Assembly (NCBI GenBank): GCA_036514715.1
Contig: DATBWR010000013.1
Location: 6,779-70,778 of the forward strand
DNA: 64,000 nucleotides
Origin: Candidatus Nanoarchaeia archaeon
GTDB lineage: Bacteria; Patescibacteriota; Microgenomatia; Woykebacterales; RBG-16-39-9b
Reading direction: 5' to 3'
Shown: in pieces, positions 9,054 through 61,606 of the stretch
How positions within the stretch are numbered: the stretch's first letter is position 1
Layout: every line of letters starts with the position of its first letter
Program-made: the position numbers and the translations under genes
The notes under the pieces: model-generated
Seen by the model: the letters and a program-made list of their open reading frames with translations, nothing else
Databases searched by the model: none
Told to the model about the DNA's origin: nothing

Positions 9054-9077
9054 ATATATGAATGATCATTCATATAT
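9054..9077. repeat. 24-bp perfect palindrome ATATATGAAT-GATC-ATTCATATAT (copy a of 4)
   Basis: Read directly; lies between convergent gene ends and overlaps the stop of 9066..9347. Confidence 0.8.
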
Positions 9078-9347
9078 CTTTCGCAAAAGAGGTCTTTCTT
9101 CAATATGAAAGTCGACCTGCTTAAAACCAGGGTGGAGATGTACAGTCAGGGCTTTATTTTTATAAATCTTGCCGAAACCATCTGGAGCTGGTTCTGTGAA
9201 GACTTCTGAAGAAAGGCGAATATATTTCACTCCTCGATCCTCGACATATCTCCCACCACAGATCTCACCAGCTTCCTCAAATGAGGACGCCAGGATAACA
9301 TAATAACCAACACCCATCATTCGATAAACAACGTACGCTTTCATCAC
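9066..9347 (-). CDS. Hypothetical small protein
   Basis: 93-aa ORF, no family recognised. Confidence 0.35.
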   Translation of the reverse strand: MMKAYVVYRMMGVGYYVILASSFEEAGEICGGRYVEDRGVKYIRLSSEVFTEPAPDGFGKIYKNKALTVHLHPGFKQVDFHIEERPLLRKIYE

Positions 9348-9440
9348 TCTCTCCTTTTCTTGGCAAGAATCTTAGCACGAGGCTAAATGTAAATCAATTA
9401 TTCTGCTATAATACGCTCATGGCAAAAATAGCGGCCAATA

Positions 9441-9490
9441 GGTAGTTTCTGTGAAACTTAAATTTATTCAAATTACGGTCGATATTTTGC
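9441..9490 (+). promoter_or_regulatory. Conserved 5' leader module (hairpin AGUUUCUGUGAAACU ... UUACGGUCGA) upstream of hisS; copy 1 of 3
   Basis: ~45-nt block shared with rpmE and proS upstream regions. Preceded by an extended -10 (TGcTATAAT at ~9404-9412) and ends 7 nt before the hisS ATG. Confidence 0.55.
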
Positions 9491-13005: not shown

Positions 13006-13062
13006 TTGGCTTGCTGGAAGCAAAACTTTATGCTAATATACTCACGTTTATATCGACCAAAA

Positions 13063-13104
13063 GGTAGTTTCTGAGAAACTTAAGATTTATTATATTACGG
13101 TCGA
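13063..13104 (+). promoter_or_regulatory. Conserved 5' leader module upstream of rpmE; copy 2 of 3, followed by a 34-nt GC-rich insertion
   Basis: GGTAGTTTCTGAGAAACTTAAGATTTATTATATTACGGTCGA. Upstream promoter TTGCTG-N17-TAATAT at ~13011-13039. Confidence 0.55.
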
Positions 13105-15976: not shown

Positions 15977-17962
15977 TTACCCTCTTTTACCTAAGTTGGT
16001 TAATAATAAAGAATAATCAACGCTGTTAACAACGCCGTCATAGTTGATATCGTAGAGAGCCTCTTCGTTGCTCATCCCGGCCGGAACCATTCTTTCAAGG
16101 TCAGTTTGATCAATCACGTTATCACCATTAAAGTCGCCCATCACAAAGGCTGCAACTGACGCTTTAGTATCGTTGGTGAAAGTAAAACCTAAAGCCTGCA
16201 TTAAGGAATTTTTCGCCCAAACTTTCAAGACGTAATTGGTGTTCTTTGCCAACTGACTGTTGGTCTTTAAGATTAGCGTCCCACCCTTGCTTTCCACTAT
16301 CGCTTTTTGGGAAAAAGCGGTTTGCTCTACTTTAATCGTCACTTCCATACCACCTTTCAGGAAGGGGTTTGGAGCAAAGGTAAGGGTAATATCGCTACTT
16401 GTGGCTTTCGGCGCAGTTGACCCGGGTGGCGTAACTTTAGGAGCCGAAGATTGCGAACCGCCCGTTCCACCGCTGGTTCCACCAGTCGAACCACCGGTTG
16501 ATCCTCCAGTCGAACCACCGGTTGAGCCCCCAGTCGAACCACCGGTTGAGCCCCCAGTGGAGCCTCCTCCAGAAGAACCGCCGCCGGAGCTAGAAACAGT
16601 ATAACTGGTAGTAGCCTGGTTATTGGAATCATTGCTTTCGGCGATTTGACAGTCAGCATCGACAAAAACCCTCCCCGTGTAAGTACCCGCTGAAGATGGG
16701 GCGGTGAAGCTCAAAGTGAAATTACCGGTTGAAACACCTGCTCCCAAAGAACTAAAGGAACGGGAAGCCTGACCGTTGGGTGTTAGACATGGAACACTTG
16801 AAGGTTGGTTGGAATAAACATCAACCCAAAAAGTCCCAGAAGCAGCTCCACTACCGTTGTTAACAATATTGACAGTGGCAGTTACCGTCTGTCCTGAAGT
16901 TGGGTTTGTAGGCGACAGAGTAAAATTACTAACCGCCAAATCTGGCTGTGATGGCGGAGGTGGGGGTGAGGAGACGTTAACGGTTACTGAGTCAGAAGCA
17001 CTTCCCCCCGAACCGCTACAGGCCAAAGTGTAGGTTCTGCTGGCCGTTAGACTACCGGTAGATTCAGATCCGCTTGTGCCTTTGGTCCCGGACCAACCAT
17101 TAGAAGCTGTACAAGAAGTGGCATTGGTTGAAACCCAAGAAAGAGTCGCACTGGTATTGTAACTAATGGTAATTGGGCCGTTAGAGTTATTAGCTTTAAG
17201 ATCCACTGTTGGTTGGGGAGGAGGCGGAGGTGGTGGGGAAGTCACGTTAACGGTTACCGAATCGGACGCACTCCCCCCTGAGCCGCTACAGGCCAAAGTG
17301 TAGGTTTTTGCCGAGGTGAGATTACTCGTAGATTGTGAACCGCTAGTTGCTTTAGACCCTGTCCAGCCGTTAGAGGCCGTACAACCAGTTGCATTACTCG
17401 AACTCCAGGAAAGAGTCGCACTGGTATTGTAACTAATGGTAATTGGGCCGTTAGAGTTATTAGCTTTAATATCCACTGTGGGTGGGTTACAGTTGGGAGT
17501 GGTAATTGTAGGGGCAGCCGGGTAAGCAAGAGAGCCGCCGTTGGGATCGGAATTAAGATAGGCGTAAATTCTCCACCAGTAAGTGTAGCTGTCTTGCGGA
17601 GTTGCCCCGCCAATTGGGTTGTCCCTGTCCCAAATGAACCATTCTTGGGGAACAGGAAGGTAAAGGTTCCACCAGAGACCATCGTCAGCAAAACTTGAGT
17701 TGACATCAATGTCAATGTAACTACCGTCAGCGTAAGGCGGGTTCCAATCCCAAAAAAAGGTTACGCGCGGATCTCCTTGATAACAACTAGTGGTGTAAAC
17801 ATAAAGGTCAGTGGGTACGGGTGAGGAGGCTTGGGAACGAGTGTCTCTTGAAGTTAGAGCAGCGTATTGAGTAGCAGCAATGGCGGTGAAAAGCAAGACA
17901 GTTAAAACTAGAGAGAACCAGGTTGACCGGCTTAGTTTAATCTTCTTCAAGGAAAAAGACAT
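15977..17962 (-). CDS. Secreted surface protein: two tandem ~88-aa repeats, CARDB-like domain, Gly/Ser/Thr linker, C-terminal dockerin
   Basis: Dockerin duplicated Ca-binding segments GDFNGDNVIDQTD and YDINYDGVVNSVDYSLL; CARDB-like DLAVSNFTLSPTNPTSGQTVTATVNIVNNG; poly-Pro linkers. Confidence 0.6.
   Translation of the reverse strand: MSFSLKKIKLSRSTWFSLVLTVLLFTAIAATQYAALTSRDTRSQASSPVPTDLYVYTTSCYQGDPRVTFFWDWNPPYADGSYIDIDVNSSFADDGLWWNLYLPVPQEWFIWDRDNPIGGATPQDSYTYWWRIYAYLNSDPNGGSLAYPAAPTITTPNCNPPTVDIKANNSNGPITISYNTSATLSWSSSNATGCTASNGWTGSKATSGSQSTSNLTSAKTYTLACSGSGGSASDSVTVNVTSPPPPPPPQPTVDLKANNSNGPITISYNTSATLSWVSTNATSCTASNGWSGTKGTSGSESTGSLTASRTYTLACSGSGGSASDSVTVNVSSPPPPPSQPDLAVSNFTLSPTNPTSGQTVTATVNIVNNGSGAASGTFWVDVYSNQPSSVPCLTPNGQASRSFSSLGAGVSTGNFTLSFTAPSSAGTYTGRVFVDADCQIAESNDSNNQATTSYTVSSSGGGSSGGGSTGGSTGGSTGGSTGGSTGGSTGGSTGGTSGGTGGSQSSAPKVTPPGSTAPKATSSDITLTFAPNPFLKGGMEVTIKVEQTAFSQKAIVESKGGTLILKTNSQLAKNTNYVLKVWAKNSLMQALGFTFTNDTKASVAAFVMGDFNGDNVIDQTDLERMVPAGMSNEEALYDINYDGVVNSVDYSLLLTNLGKRG
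16470..16580. repeat. 12/24-bp coding tandem repeat encoding (GGST)n linker
   Basis: CCAGTCGAACCACCGGTTGAGCCC repeated about four times. Confidence 0.7.
16948..17476. repeat. Two ~264-bp intragenic direct repeats (~85% identical) within 15977..17962
   Basis: Duplicated DNA blocks encoding the two TVDIKANNSNGPITISYNTSATLSW... modules. Confidence 0.7.
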
Positions 17963-21359: not shown

Positions 21360-21383
21360 ATATATGAATAGTTATTCATATAT
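21360..21383. repeat. 24-bp palindrome ATATATGAAT-AGTT-ATTCATATAT (copy b)
   Basis: Read directly; intergenic between ctpA end and purC start. Confidence 0.8.
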
Positions 21384-21439
21384 TTTTAAGAAAAAAGCCT
21401 GCTCTTTCATACTTCATCCTTCGCACTTCTTACTTAATT

Positions 21440-26952: not shown

Positions 26953-27314
26953 AAAAGTATCTGCTTGAAGTTTTGTTGTTGTACGGTGGTCTCATCGCTT
27001 TTAGCCTATTCCACATCTACCTTCTGCCGGAGCGCTTTCTAGTAATGCTCCTAGCAGAATTCATGGCCTTGGTAGTATTCATAACACAACCTAAGACAGG
27101 TTGGTATCTGCTACGCACCACTGGCATATCCGGGTCGGTTTGGATCATGGTTTTAGGTGTCTTAGCCACAGACCTAGCCGAAACTTGGCGCTGGCTGTTA
27201 GTAATCCTTGGAGGTATCGCTCTGTACCTCCTTTACTACTTCGGTACGCCAGAATTCTTTGAGGTGGTAAGAGATCTGAGGAGAGGTCAAAATAACCAAG
27301 CGGTTCAGCAATGA
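26949..27314 (+). CDS. Membrane protein
   Basis: 121 aa with 3-4 TM helices; overlaps the upstream gene by 4 nt. Confidence 0.45.
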   Translation: MKKYLLEVLLLYGGLIAFSLFHIYLLPERFLVMLLAEFMALVVFITQPKTGWYLLRTTGISGSVWIMVLGVLATDLAETWRWLLVILGGIALYLLYYFGTPEFFEVVRDLRRGQNNQAVQQ

Positions 27315-27334
27315 ACCGCTTCTTTTTCTGGAAA
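27297..27334 (+). terminator. Intrinsic terminator (palindromic, possibly bidirectional)
   Basis: AAGCGGUUCA-GCAA-UGAACCGCUU followed by CUUUUUCUGG; overlaps the stop codon. Confidence 0.7.
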
Positions 27335-27519
27335 ATCCGCCCTTTGGATTAGTCACCGTTAAAATGGGGTCCCCTTTGTGGAGTTGGCGTTTTTAAACTT
27401 GCAAAAAAGCAAGAGGAAGCGGTTCCCGAGGATGTCCCGATGATTTTTTGCTTAGTTTAACAGCCAACGCAGCAGGGGTGTCCTTTCTTGGCTACTTCTT
27501 TGGACAAGCAAAGAAGTAG
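27333..27519 (+). ncRNA. Candidate novel structured RNA, copy 1 of 2 (paralog at 49319..49509)
   Basis: ~85% identity to copy 2, invariant 33-nt core, compensatory substitutions in three helices, U-G wobbles valid only on the + strand. Confidence 0.5.
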
Positions 27520-27556
27520 TAAAAATTAAACGTTGAATTTAAATAGCTTAGATGTT

Positions 27557-28606
27557 TCAAGTATTGAATTTAAAGATGGTTGTATCGCCGTCTTGAAAAA
27601 TATAGTCGCGTCCTTCCAACCGCACCCAACCTTTATCCCGGGCTTGCTGCCAACCACCTGCTTCTACTAATTTTTCGAAAGTTATTACCTCGGCTTTAAT
27701 AAAGCCCTTTTCAAAATCCGTGTGAATAACACCGGCAGCCTGTGGAGCTTTAGTTCCAACAGTAACGGTCCAAGCTCGCACTTCTTTTTCCCCGGCCGTA
27801 AAATAAGTACTCAACCCCAGCAATTTGTAACTTTCCGCAATTAACCGCTCCAACCCTGACTGCCGCAAACCCAGTTCTGCTAAATAGTCTTTTTGCTCAG
27901 GTTTTGTAAGTTCTGAGAGTTCCTCTTCAACTTTAGCGCAAATAACAACCTCAGGACTAAAACCACTAGCAACTTCCTTTTTGAGAGCGCCTTCAGCCAC
28001 GTTAAAGACGTAAATTACTGGTTTCAAAGTAATTAACGGTAGCTCAGCCGCCAGCTCCTCATCCACCTCAACCTCTTTAGCTAGTTTCCCTTGCTCTAAA
28101 CCTTCTTTGAGCTTTTTCAGCACAGAGAGTTTTTTTTCAGCATCTTTTTCTTTGGCCTTAAGATCTTTCTCAGCTGAAAAGATTACTTTCTCAACTGTTT
28201 CAAGATCAGCAAGAGCTAGTTCCGTGTTAATTGTTTCAATGTCTGATTTGGGATCAACTCCGGAGACAGCTACGTTGGGGTCAACAAAAGCGCGGACAAC
28301 GTGGGCAAGAGCGTCAACTTCCCTGATGTGACTCAAGAATTGATTGCCTAAACCCTCACCAGTTGCGGCCCCTTTGACTAAACCGGCAATATCGACAAAT
28401 TCCACCACCGCCGGCACAATCTTCTCAGTTTTAACAACAGCCGCTAACCTTCCAAGACGTTCATCGGGAACTTCAACCACCCCAATATTGGGTTCAATAG
28501 TCGTAAATGGGTAATTTGCACTCTGGGCAACCTGCTTTTTTAGCAAGGCGTTAAAAAGAGTGGATTTACCCACGTTTGGTAAGCCAACAATGCCAACTTT
28601 CAGCAC
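27557..28606 (-). CDS. ychF: Redox-regulated ATPase YchF (Obg-family GTPase)
   Basis: G1 motif GLPNVGKSTLFNAL and TGS/YchF C-terminal domain. Confidence 0.85.
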   Translation of the reverse strand: MLKVGIVGLPNVGKSTLFNALLKKQVAQSANYPFTTIEPNIGVVEVPDERLGRLAAVVKTEKIVPAVVEFVDIAGLVKGAATGEGLGNQFLSHIREVDALAHVVRAFVDPNVAVSGVDPKSDIETINTELALADLETVEKVIFSAEKDLKAKEKDAEKKLSVLKKLKEGLEQGKLAKEVEVDEELAAELPLITLKPVIYVFNVAEGALKKEVASGFSPEVVICAKVEEELSELTKPEQKDYLAELGLRQSGLERLIAESYKLLGLSTYFTAGEKEVRAWTVTVGTKAPQAAGVIHTDFEKGFIKAEVITFEKLVEAGGWQQARDKGWVRLEGRDYIFQDGDTTIFKFNT

Positions 28607-28625: not shown

Positions 28626-28997
28626 TTACCAAATGACTTTTTCATAAATATCTGAAATTTTTGCATCTTTAGTCACAACGTGAAGATTTAGGAGTTTTGC
28701 AGAAGAAACAATTACTCTATCGTGAATTTCCAATCCATCTTCCAGGTTTATGTAGTCATTAACGATATTGATATCCAATGAGAGGGTTCGAAACTTTGCA
28801 GACGGTAGGTCAGAAAGAAATTTCCTAAATTCTTTTTCGAAATTTAACTTTTTACTAACGTGAAAAGCTTCTAATAAAACAATTGTGGGTAAGAAAACAA
28901 TATCGGCAGAAAACACAACTTCCCTAGCTTTATCACTTAATCTAGAACTAGCGGATAAAAACCAAATTAACGAGTGGGTATCAAGTAGTACGTTCAC
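28626..28997 (-). CDS. vapC: PIN-domain toxin (VapC-like)
   Basis: MNVLLDTHSLIWFL... with conserved acidic residues; 123 aa. Confidence 0.65.
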   Translation of the reverse strand: MNVLLDTHSLIWFLSASSRLSDKAREVVFSADIVFLPTIVLLEAFHVSKKLNFEKEFRKFLSDLPSAKFRTLSLDINIVNDYINLEDGLEIHDRVIVSSAKLLNLHVVTKDAKISDIYEKVIW

Positions 28998-29168
28998 CGG
29001 AATAGATTAGAAGTGGAGCAGTTTTTTAGCTTTATCTAGTTCTTCCTCAAGTTTACCTTCGGGAATCTTAACATCCTTCAAAAATCCGTAGAAATCCTTA
29101 GCAGTCTTATTACTTTTGAAAGTTTGTTTGGAAGTATTTATTTTTTCTAAAGTTTCAGTCTTTTTCAT
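28998..29168 (-). CDS. Putative antitoxin of the VapC module (56-aa sORF)
   Basis: MKKTETLEKINTSKQTFKSNKTAKDFYGFLKDVKIPEGKLEEELDKAKKLLHF; stop abuts the vapC start. Below the ORF-track size cutoff. Confidence 0.4.
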
Positions 29169-33519: not shown

Positions 33520-34116
33520 CTAACTAAAAAGGGCTATAGATAAGGCAATTACTGACACAAAAAGGCTGTAAAAACCCATTCTTGATGAGCTTATCTCATA
33601 CAACTTTCTATTACAAATATCGGCAAGTCTGTTTTCTAAAGAGGATAGGTACATTAGTTCGTCAGATAAAGCTTCTATCTCCGCCTGTTTTTCACTTATG
33701 TGTGTGGCAAGCATACACGCTTGGAATTCAGCTATATCGTCATGTAAATCCTTTAAGTCTAGTTGAAACCCATCAAGTTTTACTAAAATAATCTTTAAAG
33801 TACCTTCGCTATTTAGTACATAAAAAGATGAGCTTGCGTATCTTGCTTCATCATATAATGTTCTCAGTTGACTGGTTAGTTTGCTCGAAGCACTATATAA
33901 CTCACTAGCCCACACAAGATACTTTGAGAAGTCCCTAAATTTATCCAGTTTGGATGGATCGTGGTGATATTTTTTTGGAGCATCAAATCCGTCTACACGA
34001 GCTTCTGAGTTACCTTCTATTGCTTCATAGGCTGCGTTAAAAGCTTGATGCTTGATGTATATACGGCTTTTCCCCATTAAAGCAGGAATTTTACTTTTTT
34101 CTGGCTTGGAAAGCAA
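33520..34116 (-). CDS. Hypothetical protein with C-terminal TM anchor
   Basis: 198 aa, no family; adjacent to the TA island. Confidence 0.4.
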   Translation of the reverse strand: MLSKPEKSKIPALMGKSRIYIKHQAFNAAYEAIEGNSEARVDGFDAPKKYHHDPSKLDKFRDFSKYLVWASELYSASSKLTSQLRTLYDEARYASSSFYVLNSEGTLKIILVKLDGFQLDLKDLHDDIAEFQACMLATHISEKQAEIEALSDELMYLSSLENRLADICNRKLYEISSSRMGFYSLFVSVIALSIALFS

Positions 34117-34130
34117 TTTTTGGGAGTAGA

Positions 34131-34355
34131 CTACTTTATTTTGAGGAACTCTTCAACTGTCAGACCGCTCTGGCTTATAATCGAGCGCAAAGTCCCTGTT
34201 TTCAAATCTTTGGTGTGAAACGGAATTGGGATACGGGCTCTGGTTTTTGGGTTAAGCAAAAGGTAATGACTACCGGAAATATGGTCAACAATAAAACCGA
34301 TTTTCTTAAGTTTAGAAATTACTTCACGAGGTTTTTGTGGGGAAAGCTTGGGCAT
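34131..34355 (-). CDS. hicA: HicA-family mRNA interferase toxin
   Basis: GSH...KDLKTGTLRSIISQSGL signature; 74 aa. Confidence 0.7.
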   Translation of the reverse strand: MPKLSPQKPREVISKLKKIGFIVDHISGSHYLLLNPKTRARIPIPFHTKDLKTGTLRSIISQSGLTVEEFLKIK

Positions 34356-34580
34356 CTAAACTGAGACGGAGACCTTCTCTATTTCAGCGGTATCAGTTGG
34401 AATATTCTCACCGTGTTTTTTCAGAGAGGCAATATAGACTGAAATTGCATCTTTAATCATTTCTAGTGCTTCTTGCCGACTCTCGCCTTGAGTAACACAA
34501 CCCGCCAGTGCCGGCGCGGAGACAACATATCCACCATCAGGAGCTTTTTGTAAGTAAACCGTGTAGTTCAAGACTTTCAT
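34356..34580 (-). CDS. hicB: HicB-family antitoxin (UPF0150)
   Basis: MKVLNYTVYLQKAPDGGYVVSAPALAGCVTQGESRQEALEMIKDAI. The ORF-track start at 34613 is possible; I chose the internal Met. Confidence 0.6.
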   Translation of the reverse strand: MKVLNYTVYLQKAPDGGYVVSAPALAGCVTQGESRQEALEMIKDAISVYIASLKKHGENIPTDTAEIEKVSVSV

Positions 34581-34702
34581 GGTGAAACTATAACAAATAC
34601 CAAGTACTTCCACAAGAGAAGATAGTTCTCTAATCTTCCTGCCTCAGAAAGCAAATTTTAGAAACTTTACTTAACTGGGGTTGGATGTTAAGATAACCCC
34701 AA

Positions 34703-34936
34703 ATGGAGCATCTTCAGGTTATCCGCAATGGAATAGTTTTTGAGTTAGAACCGGAAAAGGAAGGCGGCTTCACTATTACCGTCCCTTCTCTACCCGGCTG
34801 TATTTCCTACGGAAAAACTATTGATGAAGCTCTAGAGCAAATAAAAGACGCCATGGCTGGTTGGGTCGAGGTTGCTAAAGAAGAAGGAATCGATATTCCA
34901 GATGAGGTTGAAAAATCTCTACTTGTTACTCGTTGA
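34703..34936 (+). CDS. hicB: HicB-family antitoxin (UPF0150)
   Basis: GGFTITVPSLPGCISYGKTIDEALEQIKDAM. Confidence 0.7.
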   Translation: MEHLQVIRNGIVFELEPEKEGGFTITVPSLPGCISYGKTIDEALEQIKDAMAGWVEVAKEEGIDIPDEVEKSLLVTR

Positions 34937-35164
34937 ATGAAACTAACCCCAATCAAACCAAAAGTGATGGTTATTATCCTGCAAAAAGCAGGATTTTCTA
35001 TACGTAAACAGACTGGTTCTCACACTATTTTGTTTAAGAAGGGGGTTCGCAGACCAATCTCCGTAGCTATACATCCCCGTGATTTACCTTCTGGAACTCA
35101 AAGGGCAATCCTGCGCCAGGCAGAAATTTCAATTGACGAGTTTAACAAATTAATTAAAGAATAA
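34937..35164 (+). CDS. hicA: HicA-family toxin
   Basis: KQTGSHTILFKKG...IHPRDLPSGTQRAILRQAEI. Confidence 0.7.
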   Translation: MKLTPIKPKVMVIILQKAGFSIRKQTGSHTILFKKGVRRPISVAIHPRDLPSGTQRAILRQAEISIDEFNKLIKE

Positions 35165-35236
35165 AGTCTTAACTACTTTTTCCTGCCTAGGAAAGCAAAT
35201 TTAGTTTTTAGAAATTTATGCCATAATATACGCACA

Positions 35237-35518
35237 GTGAAAGTTGTTTATACCGACCACTTAGTCGAGCGTATAGAATTAAGAGGGATCCCTTACAATT
35301 TACCGAAAGATGTTTATCAAGGTCGTGAAGAGGTTTTCTTTGATACTCAAACAAATCATTTTGTGGCCTTGAGTAAAAAAGAGTATTTTGGTAAACTCAG
35401 AACAGTTGTTGTTCCATTTGACAAATTTTCTGATAGAATCAAGCTGGTTACTATTCATCCGATTGAAGAAAAGGACAAAACACAAAGAATAAAATCTGGA
35501 AGGTGGATAAGCAGATGA
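35237..35518 (+). CDS. DUF4258-like toxin-like protein
   Basis: HLVERIELRGI N-terminus; co-occurs with the downstream DUF2283. Confidence 0.4.
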   Translation: MKVVYTDHLVERIELRGIPYNLPKDVYQGREEVFFDTQTNHFVALSKKEYFGKLRTVVVPFDKFSDRIKLVTIHPIEEKDKTQRIKSGRWISR

Positions 35519-35727
35519 AAAAACCAAAAATTTCTTACGACAAAAAAGCAGATGTTCTTTACTTCTTTCTTAAAGAAGGTTCCGAAGAGGAATACAAAGA
35601 AATCGCACCAGGCGTAGGTTTAGAGTTAGACAAAAAGGGTGCCCTACTTGGTGTAGAGATACTTAATGCCTCAAAAGTTTTAGGTGCCAAACCTAAGATT
35701 AAAGAAAAAATCCTTGAATCTGCATAG
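35503..35727 (+). CDS. DUF2283 family protein (antitoxin-like partner)
   Basis: KISYDKKADVLYFFL...GVGLELDKKGALLGVEILNASKVL. Confidence 0.55.
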   Translation: MDKQMKKPKISYDKKADVLYFFLKEGSEEEYKEIAPGVGLELDKKGALLGVEILNASKVLGAKPKIKEKILESA

Positions 35728-35825
35728 GAACTAAATTTCTTAAACAAGCTTCAAAATCCTTCCTCAAAAAGTTAAAGAAACAGTTTTCCAATAACATTTT
35801 CCTGGCTCGGAAAGCAAATTGTTAA

Positions 35826-35849
35826 ATATATGAATACTTATTCATATAT
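35826..35849. repeat. 24-bp palindrome ATATATGAAT-ACTT-ATTCATATAT (copy c)
   Basis: Read directly; between convergent gene ends, immediately after a GGAAAGCAAATT repeat copy. Confidence 0.8.
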
Positions 35850-35866
35850 TTGTTGGGAAAAGAAAT

Positions 35867-49318: not shown

Positions 49319-49509
49319 CAAAACCGCCCTCGCCGAGCATGTATTTTTTGGGGTCCCTTTTGTGGAGCGAGCGTCTTTGAACTAGCAAAAATTCGAGAGG
49401 AAGCGGTTCCCGAGGATGTCCCGATGAATTTTTGCTAAAGCTTCAACAGCTCGCGCAACAGGGGTGTCCTTTTCTTGGAAACTTCTTTTGGACAAGCAAA
49501 AGAGGTTTC
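49319..49509 (+). ncRNA. Candidate novel structured RNA, copy 2 of 2 (paralog at 27333..27519)
   Basis: See copy 1; the 3' hairpin overlaps the stop codon of the convergent gene 49508..49945. Confidence 0.5.
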
Positions 49510-49945
49510 AAGAGAGTTTTTCTTTAACGAGTTGGGAAACCAGGGAGAAGTCTGCCTTACCATGTAAACCAGACAGAGCGCCCATAACTTTGCCCATTTC
49601 AGCAATTGTGGCTGCACCAGTGCTCTCTATTGCGTCATCAACTGCCTTGCGAACCTCTTCTTCAGACACTTGCGCTGGGAGATAAGTTTGGAGAATTGAG
49701 AGTTCCTTTTTCTCTTTCTCGGCGAGCTCTCTCCGTCCACCTTTTTCAAAGCCTTCAATGCTTTCCCGATGCCGCTTCACTTGCCGCTCAATTACACTAA
49801 TAACCTCTTCATCAGTCAGTTCCCGCTGCTTTTCAATCTGGTAATTTTTAATATCAGCTAGCAAAAAACGGACTGTCGAAAGTTTTATCTCATCGCGAGC
49901 CATCATTGCCGTTTTCATATCTTCCTGCAATTTCCCAAGTAACAT
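49508..49945 (-). CDS. GatB/YqeY domain protein
   Basis: Characteristic YqeY sequence (…LSILQTYLP…, …TGAATIAEMGKVMGAL…). Confidence 0.75.
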   Translation of the reverse strand: MLLGKLQEDMKTAMMARDEIKLSTVRFLLADIKNYQIEKQRELTDEEVISVIERQVKRHRESIEGFEKGGRRELAEKEKKELSILQTYLPAQVSEEEVRKAVDDAIESTGAATIAEMGKVMGALSGLHGKADFSLVSQLVKEKLS

Positions 49946-51168: not shown

Positions 51169-51305
51169 TTAAATAATTCTACCAATAACAAAGCCTACTG
51201 TCACCCCCTCCAACAATACTAATATAATGTATATATTAGTATTTATTGATCTGCGGAAAAATTTTCCCAAAGAAAAACGCCTCAAGCCAGTAAAAGGCTA
51301 AGGCG

Positions 51306-57565: not shown

Positions 57566-57589
57566 ATATATGAATGTTTATTCATATAT
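57566..57589. repeat. 24-bp palindrome ATATATGAAT-GTTT-ATTCATATAT (copy d)
   Basis: Read directly; in the divergent intergenic region upstream of pth. Confidence 0.8.
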
Positions 57590-57672
57590 CTTTAGATACT
57601 ATGGGATTTACTTTTGCTTGGTTGTATGTTATTATTGCCTTAATAAACAGGAAGAAAGTAGGAGGGTAAAGA

Positions 57673-61112: not shown

Positions 61113-61522
61113 TAAAAATTTCCTGAAGAAAGTTTTGCCCGTGCCTGAGTGTTAGTTTTAGCTTTTAGTGCAGTTTCAACAAATCTTAGTAATTTGCTCG
61201 TCTTATCTTTATTTGAAAACTTTGCTGTCTTGGACAAGAATTTGCTGAATTCATCTGAGGAATCTAAATAGTTCTTAGCTTGTCGAAAGGTTTCGTAACT
61301 GACTTTTAAGGCCTCTTTAACTTCTGTTTCTGAATACCCACCTACAATCATTAAATAAAGACCCAATCTTTTGGCCAACATTCCTTTTTCTTCTTTAGTG
61401 AGAAAACGTTGCAAAAAATCTTCAATCTGAGCTTGATTACTGGAAGCTAAAACTTGAGCAAATGTTTCATTAACCTGATTCCAAACGGACTTCTTTAATG
61501 GTGTCTTTGAAACCCTCGTCAT
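61112..61522 (-). CDS. Putative TrpR/YerC-like small DNA-binding protein
   Basis: Start at internal MTRVSK; helical protein with KEEKGMLAKRLGLYLMIVGGYSETEV segment; weak family assignment. Confidence 0.35.
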   Translation of the reverse strand: MTRVSKTPLKKSVWNQVNETFAQVLASSNQAQIEDFLQRFLTKEEKGMLAKRLGLYLMIVGGYSETEVKEALKVSYETFRQAKNYLDSSDEFSKFLSKTAKFSNKDKTSKLLRFVETALKAKTNTQARAKLSSGNF

Positions 61523-61606
61523 AATTACTAATATAATTATTATATTAGTATTAGTCAACTGTAGAGTTTTGTTAATTTAGACTAATAATCAAGCTATTTA
61601 CTTAAA

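What the first reader, a model, noticed from the sequence alone, without database searches (positions are those of the whole stretch)
27333..27519. Two-copy ~190-nt element with compensatory helix substitutions: candidate novel structured RNA
Copies sit at 27333-27519 and 49319-49509, both on the + strand, ~85% identical, with an invariant 33-nt core GAGAGGAAGCGGTTCCCGAGGATGTCCCGATGA. The differences fall in predicted helices and keep pairing intact. (a) GUUGGC/GCCAAC in copy 1 versus GCGAGC/GCUCGC in copy 2: three double substitutions at aligned positions. (b) GCAAAAAA/UUUUUUGC versus AGCAAAAAUUC/GAAUUUUUGCU. (c) 3' hairpin CUACUUCUUUG-GACAAG-CAAAGAAGUAG versus GAAACUUCUUUUG-GACAAG-CAAAAGAGGUUUC: different stems, identical loop. 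(d) Outer stem CCCCU/AGGGG versus UCCCU/AGGGG. The U-G wobbles in (c) and (d) are only valid on the + strand, so the RNA is probably + strand, convergent on the minus-strand ychF gene in copy 1 and on the GatB/YqeY gene in copy 2. A conserved box AAAnCCGCCCT lies ~20 nt upstream of an AT-rich hexamer (TAAAAT / ATTTTT) just before the first helix, suggesting its own promoter. The core loop carries two AGGA motifs and a direct repeat UCCCGA-N5-UCCCGA, reminiscent of protein-titrating sRNAs. I could not match it to conserved blocks of 6S, SRP, RNase P, tmRNA, T-box or common ribozymes from memory.
Basis: partly seen in the sequence, partly recalled or inferred. Interest (0 to 1): 0.78.

Follow-up and report, generated by a model that had tools for sequence, protein, structure and literature searches.

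The report
Modular structured RNA repeat in Patescibacteria
The two look-alike 165-base stretches are real and are copies (at least three per genome) of a folded, probably transcribed RNA repeat. Its tail matches repeat elements of the little-understood TwoAYGGAY type in distant bacteria, and its tip carries the same 19 bases as a conserved hairpin in front of the 23S ribosomal RNA gene of other uncultured bacteria.

Summary
Two + strand copies lie at 27365-27519 and 49349-49509 and share a 32-nt identical core. I found a third copy about 5.6 kb outside the window.

Across the three copies, 8 base pairs change on both sides (0 of 500 shuffles reach this). About 16 G·U cells fit only the + strand. 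This supports a + strand structured RNA.

No Rfam family matches. The element is still not an orphan:
- **3' module.** The pyrimidine tract plus AU-rich hairpin matches multi-copy intergenic repeats of Ilyobacter, Pseudoalteromonas, Ralstonia and Caballeronia. A model built only from those sequences finds all three copies at E 3e-9 to 5e-7. In Pseudoalteromonas the module follows a TwoAYGGAY RNA (RF01731).
- **Core.** Its first 19 nt are identical to the invariant loop of a covarying hairpin 50-75 nt upstream of 23S rRNA in ten metagenome contigs.

Five related genomes lack the element at the syntenic sites examined, so it behaves like an expanding repeat.

Best reading: a new Patescibacteria variant of TwoAYGGAY-like modular RNA repeats, probably a protein-binding decoy. 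Transcription, binding partner and way of spreading are not shown.

The parts
27365..27519 (+). Copy 1 of the repeat: long hairpin, linker and 3' hairpin
   Evidence: Model R1 scores 169.6 bits. Fold -59 kcal/mol, z -3.9.
27366..27483 (+). Copy 1 long hairpin domain: outer GGGG/CCUU, CCCCU/AGGGG, GUUGGC/GCCAAC, UUAAA/UUUAA, GCAAAAAA/UUUUUUGC
   Evidence: Consensus fold and per-pair counts, with 6 pairs changed on both sides in this domain.
27412..27443 (+). Identical 32-nt core at the tip of the hairpin, with two GAGGA and two UCCCGA motifs. Its first 19 nt (27412-27430, AGAGGAAGCGGTTCCCGAG) equal the loop of the pre-23S leader hairpin.
27473..27523 (+). Copy 1 3' module: CAGGGGUGUCCUUUCUUGG followed by the hairpin
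   Evidence: Model R2, built only from Ilyobacter, Pseudoalteromonas, Ralstonia and Caballeronia repeats, scores 40.3 bits, E 2.9e-9. blastn hit to Ilyobacter.
27492..27519 (+). Copy 1 3' hairpin CUACUUCUUUG-GACAAG-CAAAGAAGUAG. It ends 6 nt before a remnant of the ychF stop and 37 nt before the real stop.
49349..49509 (+). Copy 2 of the repeat
   Evidence: R1 scores 191.1 bits. Fold -65.3 kcal/mol, z -4.7.
49396..49427 (+). Copy 2 core, identical to that of copy 1
49459..49515 (+). Copy 2 3' module. The hairpin spans 49478-49509 and overlaps the yqeY stop codon (49508-49510, - strand).
   Evidence: R2 scores 32.3 bits, E 5.2e-7..
27333..27343 (+). AAATCCGCCCT box upstream of copy 1. Whether it belongs to the element is uncertain.
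   Evidence: Only two exact matches in the window. Absent from copy 3.
49320..49330 (+). AAAACCGCCCT box upstream of copy 2. Whether it belongs to the element is uncertain.
   Evidence: A similar string occurs in relative L133 at the start of a 156-aa ORF, but the alignment is no better than shuffles.

Best explanation
The finding is one of at least three copies of a ~165-nt modular structured RNA repeat in a Woykebacteria-like Patescibacteria genome.

Each copy has two parts:
- **Long helix.** It evolves by compensatory change and holds an invariant 32-nt tip with two GAGGA and two UCCCGA motifs.
- **3' module.** A pyrimidine tract (CUUUCUUGG) is followed by an AU-rich hairpin whose 5' arm repeats that tract.

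The same 3' module follows long hairpins in multi-copy intergenic repeats of Pseudomonadota and Fusobacteriota, including a TwoAYGGAY RNA. I therefore read the element as a new, divergent variant of that class.

Inferred mechanism: the + strand is transcribed into a small stable RNA. Its exposed tip binds an RNA-binding factor, the same one that recognises the identical loop in the pre-23S rRNA leader of other uncultured bacteria. The RNA would then act as a decoy or sponge, as proposed for the AYGGAY loops and Csr/Rsm proteins. The family expands within a genome like a mobile element.

- **Shown:** the copies, the conserved + strand structure, the module homology, the leader-loop identity, and absence from syntenic sites in relatives.
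- **Inferred:** transcription, the binding partner, the decoy role, and how the element spreads.
For: - **Three copies.**
- **Covariation.** 8 pairs changed on both sides, 0 of 500 shuffles reach this, slid controls give 0-2.
- **Strand.** The G·U excess and the better consensus energy are on the + strand.
- **Module.** The non-CPR module model R2 finds exactly the three copies (E 2.9e-9, 3.3e-7, 5.2e-7). The next hit has E 0.2 in 83 kb on both strands.
- **Module distribution.** It occurs at 550 places in 149 plasmid or chromid records. In Pseudoalteromonas it lies directly 3' of a TwoAYGGAY match of 56.7 bits, above the gathering score of 43.
- **Shared architecture.** Ralstonia and Pseudoalteromonas elements also have a long hairpin, a linker and an AU hairpin.
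- **Leader loop.** The 19-nt loop lies 50-75 nt upstream of 23S in 10 contigs. Its stem covaries: 12 cells changed on both sides, 0 of 500 shuffles.
- **Shared order of short motifs.** Both the leader and the element read GGGUC-pyrimidines, then the loop, then GUCYGAU, then a pyrimidine-arm hairpin.
- **Absence in relatives.**
- **Literature.** TwoAYGGAY is multi-copy, varies in copy number, looks mobile-element-like and has been proposed as a Csr/Rsm binder (bioRxiv 10.64898/2026.09.22.753630).
Against: - The Rfam TwoAYGGAY model does not match any copy at E <= 10.
- The tip has GAGGAA, GAGGAU and RCGGUU, not AYGGAY.
- The tip is invariant, so its own fold is untested.
- No promoter-like site and no canonical terminator were found. 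All three copies abut the stop codon of a - strand gene, which a 3'-UTR reading would explain more simply.
- No CsrA-like signature was found in about 93 kb of this genome.
- No full-length homologue was found in any other genome. The two big scans used single exact 18-mers, and the metagenome set lacks even the source organism's own contigs.
- Copies 2 and 3 do not retrieve the foreign module by blastn.
- The taxonomy of the leader-bearing contigs could not be verified.
Confidence: 0.5

Rival explanations
1. A selfish, MITE- or REP-like DNA repeat with no RNA function. The hairpins are DNA structures needed for mobilisation, and the compensatory changes come from templated correction within quasi-palindromes.
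For: - Multi-copy and absent from syntenic sites in relatives.
- The copies sit in variable intergenic spots.
- In Caballeronia the module lies in 93-nt inverted arms of a ~600-nt palindromic unit.
- Logan contigs break at the core, as at repeats.
Against: - There are no terminal inverted repeats and no consistent target duplication at the three copies.
- About 16 G·U cells against 1-2 A·C cells is a strand asymmetry that DNA hairpins do not predict.
- The core equals a loop conserved in transcribed rRNA leaders.
- No transposase lies nearby.
Confidence: 0.17
2. A - strand 3'-UTR element of ychF, yqeY and the 357-aa gene. It would be read through from those genes and act as an mRNA end-stabiliser or terminator.
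For: - All three copies start 0-45 nt after the stop of a - strand gene.
- No + strand promoter is predicted.
- At copy 1 the first canonical - strand terminator (27321-27298) lies beyond the element.
Against: - The wobble pattern and the consensus energy favour +.
- R2 matches only on + (E 0.36 or worse on the - strand).
- The leader motif is sense on +.
- The - strand hairpin has no U tract.
Confidence: 0.12
3. A trans-acting base-pairing sRNA. Its exposed UCCC and CUUUCUU tracts would pair with purine-rich ribosome-binding sites, as in RsaE/RoxS-type regulators.
For: - Two UCCCGA motifs in the invariant tip and a conserved pyrimidine linker.
- Paralogous copies, as for many sRNAs.
Against: - No target was identified.
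- Duplex scans of the loop against a complete 23S-5S locus were no better than shuffled loops.
- This reading does not explain the identical loop in rRNA leaders or the cross-phylum module.
Confidence: 0.1
4. Orphaned fragments of an rRNA operon leader, left by rearrangement and decaying neutrally.
For: - The 19-23 nt identity to 23S leader hairpins.
- Shared flanking short motifs.
Against: - Three copies keep the structure through compensatory changes.
- There is no boxA, no processing stem and no rRNA nearby.
- The 3' module is not a leader feature.
Confidence: 0.04

Closest known systems
TwoAYGGAY RNA (Rfam RF01731) and its extended forms in Pseudomonadota
   Same: - Multi-copy intergenic structured RNA repeat whose copy number differs between relatives.
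- A long basal stem carries GGA-containing apical motifs.
- In a Pseudoalteromonas locus the basal stem is followed at once by the same pyrimidine tract and AU hairpin as here.
- Function unknown. Proposed as a Csr/Rsm sponge with mobile-element-like spread.
   Different: - The Rfam model does not match at E <= 10.
- The tip motifs are GAGGAA, GAGGAU and RCGGUU rather than AYGGAY.
- The tip is 32 nt, not two well-formed hairpins.
- The host is Patescibacteria, where the family has not been reported.
- The tip is shared with a 23S leader.
Module-bearing intergenic repeats of Ralstonia, Burkholderia, Caballeronia and Ilyobacter. They partly overlap the Rfam candidate Bp1_Cand684_SIPHT, RF02421, below its threshold.
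   Same: Same 3' module and the same order of long hairpin, linker and AU hairpin.
   Different: The 5' hairpin domains show no detectable sequence similarity. In Caballeronia the units are arranged as large inverted pairs.
Conserved hairpin in the pre-23S rRNA leader of uncultured groundwater and soil bacteria (L045, L050, L059, L063, L065, L078, L102, L109, L111, L116)
   Same: Identical 19-nt AGAGGAAGCGGUUCCCGAG, and 23 nt identical in L050 and L111. It is displayed at the end of a covarying stem and followed by GUCYGAU.
   Different: The leader hairpin is a branch of the 23S processing stem and is cotranscribed with rRNA. The element stands alone, far from any rRNA gene, and has a different stem and a 3' module.
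CsrB/RsmY/RsmZ-type protein-sponge sRNAs
   Same: GGA motifs exposed in an otherwise strongly paired RNA. The two GGA lie 17 nt apart. There are paralogous copies.
   Different: Only two GGA per copy, in GAGGA rather than ANGGA context. No CsrA gene was seen in the DNA available. No Rfam match.
ERIC, REP and MITE-type intergenic repeats
   Same: Imperfect palindromic units scattered in intergenic DNA next to gene ends, present or absent between relatives.
   Different: No terminal inverted repeats or target duplications. The structure is strand-specific. The loop is invariant.

Membership tests
TwoAYGGAY RNA (RF01731) | Match to the Rfam covariance model at or above the gathering score (43 bits) | tested here: not met
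   No TwoAYGGAY match at gathering score or at E <= 10 for copy 1 and copy 3 regions. The same search finds it in Pseudoalteromonas at 56.7 bits.
TwoAYGGAY RNA (RF01731) | [quoted passage not shown] | tested here: not met
   The basal stem is present and covaries. The tip reads GAGGAA-GCGG-UUCC-CGAGGAUG (ACGG in copy 3), with no AYGGAY. The tip is invariant, so its pairing cannot be tested.
TwoAYGGAY RNA (RF01731) | Multi-copy, intergenic, with copy number varying between related genomes | tested here: met
   3 copies in about 93 kb of this genome. None in about 120 kb from five relatives, including the syntenic sites.
TwoAYGGAY RNA (RF01731) | 3' extension after the basal stem (terminal hairpin), as in Pseudomonadota members | tested here: met
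   Model R2 from non-CPR modules hits all three copies at E 3e-9 to 5e-7. How general the module is among TwoAYGGAY members was not tested. I examined one Pseudoalteromonas locus.
Csr/Rsm sponge sRNA | Many ANGGA motifs in loops, and a CsrA/RsmA protein in the genome | tested here: inconclusive
   Two GAGGA per copy. No CsrA signature in the window, L122, L124 or L128. The whole genome was not available.
6S RNA | ~180-nt rod with a central bubble closed by the 5' and 3' ends; Rfam match | tested here: not met
   No Rfam match. The ends do not pair. The architecture is a hairpin plus a second hairpin.
MITE | Terminal inverted repeats and target-site duplications | tested here: not met
   The ends (UGGGGUCCCC... 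and ...CAAAGAAGUAG) are not inverted repeats. The flanks of the three copies share no duplication.
Intrinsic terminator (for the 3' hairpin) | GC-rich stem followed by a U tract | tested here: not met
   The scanner does not call it on either strand. The tails are UAAAAAUU, AAGAGAGUUUUU and AAUAGUAA.
pre-23S rRNA leader hairpin | Position in the leader 50-75 nt upstream of 23S, within the processing stem | tested here: not met
   No rRNA and no boxA in the window. Only the loop sequence is shared.

The most novel reading that the evidence does not exclude
Patescibacteria carry a family of small RNAs built on the cross-phylum TwoAYGGAY-type repeat scaffold. Their tip is an exact mimic of a conserved pre-23S rRNA leader hairpin. 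The RNAs would titrate, or deliver, a so far unknown leader-binding factor and so tie a mobile RNA repeat to ribosome biogenesis. Conversely, the leader hairpin could be a domesticated copy of such a repeat.
Probability: 0.15. Interest if true: 0.75.

Novelty: new variant of a known kind. Interest (0 to 1): 0.55.

Why it matters
- TwoAYGGAY-type repeats are abundant, at tens to hundreds per genome in some Pseudomonadota, and their function and way of spreading are open questions.
- A compact relative in a tiny Patescibacteria genome shares only the 3' module. That marks the module, not the AYGGAY hairpins, as the common denominator across phyla.
- The tip is identical to a conserved pre-23S leader loop, which gives a concrete, testable handle: one RNA hairpin to use as bait for the binding partner.
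- If the link to rRNA leaders is real, it would connect a repeat family to ribosome production in organisms where almost no RNA regulation is known.

Tried and rejected
- **Rfam.** Tried at gathering score and at E <= 10 on the window, copies 1 and 3, a 23S leader and the foreign repeats. Only noise for the element.
- **tRNA and tmRNA scan.** Nothing at the element.
- **Exact 18-mer scans.** GTDB representative genomes gave 33 chance hits. JGI metagenomes gave no full element. Viral contigs gave none.
- **Six-frame 'spurious ORF' protein search.** No hit.
- **Phage, plasmid and E. coli blastn.** Only copy 1 reached the Ilyobacter repeat.
- **Small-protein reading.** Rejected. There is no shared ORF, indels break the frame, and copy 1 has no start codon. 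A 10-codon frame at the 5' end has no ribosome-binding site, and its changes follow the helix.
- **Loop pairing with 23S or 5S rRNA.** No better than shuffled loops.
- **K-turn, T-loop, sarcin-ricin, hammerhead, SRP and RNase P resemblances.** Considered from memory and dropped, because the motifs do not fit.
- **Copy 2's upstream box as a remnant of a relative's ORF.** The alignment is no better than shuffles.
- **Homology between the 121-aa neighbour and the relative's 134-aa neighbour.** None.
- **One look-up wasted.** I used a wrong start codon.
- **Taxonomy of the leader contigs.** No names were returned.

Full report
**Observation.** The two stretches exist as described, both on the + strand. 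They are 27365-27519 and 49349-49509. Identity is 84-88% inside the unit. The identical core is 32 nt (27412-27443 = 49396-49427). Both strands fold better than shuffles (z -3.9 to -4.7). Rfam has no match at gathering score or at E <= 10.

**Organism and context.** YchF homologues place the genome among Woykebacteria-like Patescibacteria. The nearest other species has about 80% YchF identity.
- Copy 1 lies between a + strand operon of small membrane-protein genes, which ends in a canonical bidirectional terminator at 27298-27321, and the stop of ychF on the - strand.
- Copy 2 lies between the start of a DUF1003 gene and the stop of yqeY, both on the - strand.

**A third copy.** Fetching the contig beyond the window start revealed a third copy at L122:17993-18160, about 5.6 kb before window position 1. 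It has the same orientation and again lies about 40 nt from the stop of a convergent gene. Its core differs by one base (GGAAACGG). No further copy lies in the window or in the 10 kb beyond its end.

**Structure and strand.** I aligned the three copies (A4) and counted 58 pairs in the consensus structure.
- 96.5% of cells pair.
- 8 pairs change on both sides. Shuffles give 2.6 +/- 1.4 and 0 of 500 reach 8. Partner-slid controls give 0-2.
- The compensatory pairs include the three in GUUGGC/GCCAAC, one in UUAAA/UUUAA, two in the A/U-rich helix below the core, and two in the 3' hairpin.
- About 16 cells are G·U or U·G on the + strand and would be A·C on the - strand. Only 1-2 show the reverse.
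- The consensus energy is -53.4 kcal/mol on + and -46.0 on -.

This supports selection on a + strand RNA fold. The core itself never varies, so its internal pairing is untested.

**Not tied to its neighbours.**
- Three relatives (76-78% YchF identity) have no element within 10 kb of ychF. One of them has an ordinary bidirectional terminator in its place.
- Two relatives (72-75% YqeY identity) have no element between yqeY and the DUF1003 gene. One has a 156-aa ORF there and the other has 917 nt of unassigned non-coding DNA.
- All strains of the species in the collection carry identical copies.

So there are three copies in about 93 kb here and none in about 120 kb from relatives. The family looks expanded in this lineage.

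**The core equals a 23S leader loop.** An exact scan of metagenome contigs with AGAGGAAGCGGTTCCCGA gave 76 loci. Most lie in unrelated coding DNA, but ten are one kind of place. There the motif is the loop of a hairpin 50-75 nt upstream of the 5' end of 23S rRNA, in operons without a linked 16S gene.
- In nine aligned leaders the 19-nt loop is invariant.
- The stem covaries: 4 pairs and 12 cells changed on both sides. For the changed cells and for the covariation score, 0 of 500 shuffles reach the observed value; for the number of pairs, 86 of 500 do.
- Two leaders (L050, L111) share 23 nt with the element.
- Leader and element also share the order GGGUC-pyrimidines, then the loop, then GUCYGAU, then a pyrimidine-arm hairpin with a (G/A)CAAG-like loop. 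This is suggestive and I did not test it statistically.
- The loop shows no special complementarity to 23S or 5S rRNA.
- I could not recover this organism's own 23S leader.
- I could not confirm the taxonomy of the leader contigs.

**The 3' third is a cross-phylum module.** blastn of copy 1 against plasmids hit six places in the Ilyobacter polytropus megaplasmid. Using that repeat as the query gave 550 places in 149 records of Ralstonia, Burkholderia, Caballeronia, Pseudoalteromonas, Variovorax and others. All were unannotated intergenic DNA.
- The shared unit is (G)YGCCUUUCUUUGG, 3 nt, then a hairpin CUUUCUUUG-6 nt-CAAAGAAAG.
- Hairpin symmetry inflates blastn significance. I therefore built model R2 from the five non-CPR sequences only and searched the window plus L122 with filters off.
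- The top three hits are the three copies: E 2.9e-9, 3.3e-7 and 5.2e-7, all on the + strand. The next hit has E 0.2.
- Copies 2 and 3 had played no part in finding the family, so they are an independent confirmation.
- In Pseudoalteromonas the module follows directly after the basal stem of a TwoAYGGAY RNA (RF01731, 56.7 bits against a gathering score of 43).
- Ralstonia and Pseudoalteromonas units fold into the same long hairpin, linker and AU hairpin architecture.

**What is known about TwoAYGGAY.** It was described in 2010 as a probable RNA of unknown role (PMC2864571). A 2026 preprint reports the following (10.64898/2026.09.22.753630):
- extended structures with a terminal 3' hairpin;
- association with repeats;
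- a proposed Csr/Rsm-sponge role with mobile-element-like expansion.

Patescibacteria are not mentioned.

**Interpretation.** The element is best seen as a new, divergent variant of this class. It has the same scaffold and 3' module, but a different tip, and that tip is shared with rRNA leaders.

It fails the formal membership tests for RF01731: there is no model match and no AYGGAY loops. I therefore do not file it as a member.

The decoy function is inferred from three features:
- the invariant tip is exposed;
- its two GGA motifs lie 17 nt apart;
- the same loop is conserved in a transcribed leader.

The following are not shown:
- transcription;
- a promoter (none predicted; the AAAnCCGCCCT box is missing in copy 3);
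- the binding partner (no CsrA signature in the available DNA);
- the mode of spread.

The main rivals are a selfish DNA repeat, a - strand 3'-UTR element (all three copies abut - strand stop codons), and a base-pairing sRNA.

**Verdict.** 'Structured RNA' is supported. 'Novel two-copy sRNA linked to ychF and yqeY' is not. Novelty: new variant of a known kind. Interest: moderate.

Noticed in passing
window 9054-9089, 21360-21395, 35826-35861, 57566-57601: Four copies of a 24-nt palindrome ATATATGAATnnTTATTCATATAT in intergenic DNA (family D3). It looks like an operator for one transcription factor.
   Followed up: no
window 51203-51243 and 61512-61552: A shared palindromic box TACTAATATAAT...ATATTAGTA upstream of genes (family D5).
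   Followed up: no
window 9428-9482 and 13050-13104: A 55-nt direct repeat, 82% identical, containing GGTAGTTTCTGNGAAACTTAA (family D7).
   Followed up: no
window 27526-27546: TTAAACGTTGAATTTAAATAG is a leftover copy of the ychF 3' end. Its reverse complement reads ...FKFNV*, the true ending in relative L006. It sits 10 nt before the present stop at 27557, which points to a small rearrangement next to copy 1.
   Followed up: partly
window 34100-35800: A low-GC (0.38) cluster of small paired ORFs that look like HicA/HicB-type toxin-antitoxin genes. A PIN-domain pair also lies next to ychF at 28626-29168.
   Followed up: no
window 16455-16574 and 16953-17486: 12/24-nt tandem repeats and a 270-nt tandem duplication inside the 661-aa ORF 15977-17962.
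   Followed up: no
L004 and L121 (Logan contigs of SRR3989304): Both contigs end exactly inside the shared core. This is an assembly break of the kind expected at a repeated 31-mer.
   Followed up: partly
L045:80-420, L111:3080-3410 and seven other loci: Unlinked 23S-5S operons with a TTGACT-17-TATCAT promoter, a boxB-like hairpin and a boxA-like GATATTTGAAAACTGAATG that pairs with the 23S trailer. An invariant GGGTCTTTT and the 19-nt loop hairpin branch off the processing stem.
   Followed up: partly
L135:10442-11358: In a related genome, 917 nt of GC-rich, hairpin-rich non-coding DNA lies between yqeY and the DUF1003 gene, with no Rfam match. It includes a tandem TATATTTCTGAATATACA box.
   Followed up: partly
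L124:13697-14800: A 1013-aa TrwB/DUF87-type ATPase gene lies about 2.2 kb from copy 3. It may mark an integrated conjugative element.
   Followed up: no
L137:981-1587 (Caballeronia pNK81): The module sits in both 93-nt arms of a ~600-nt inverted-repeat unit (88% complementary). It partly matches the Rfam candidate Bp1_Cand684_SIPHT below threshold.
   Followed up: partly
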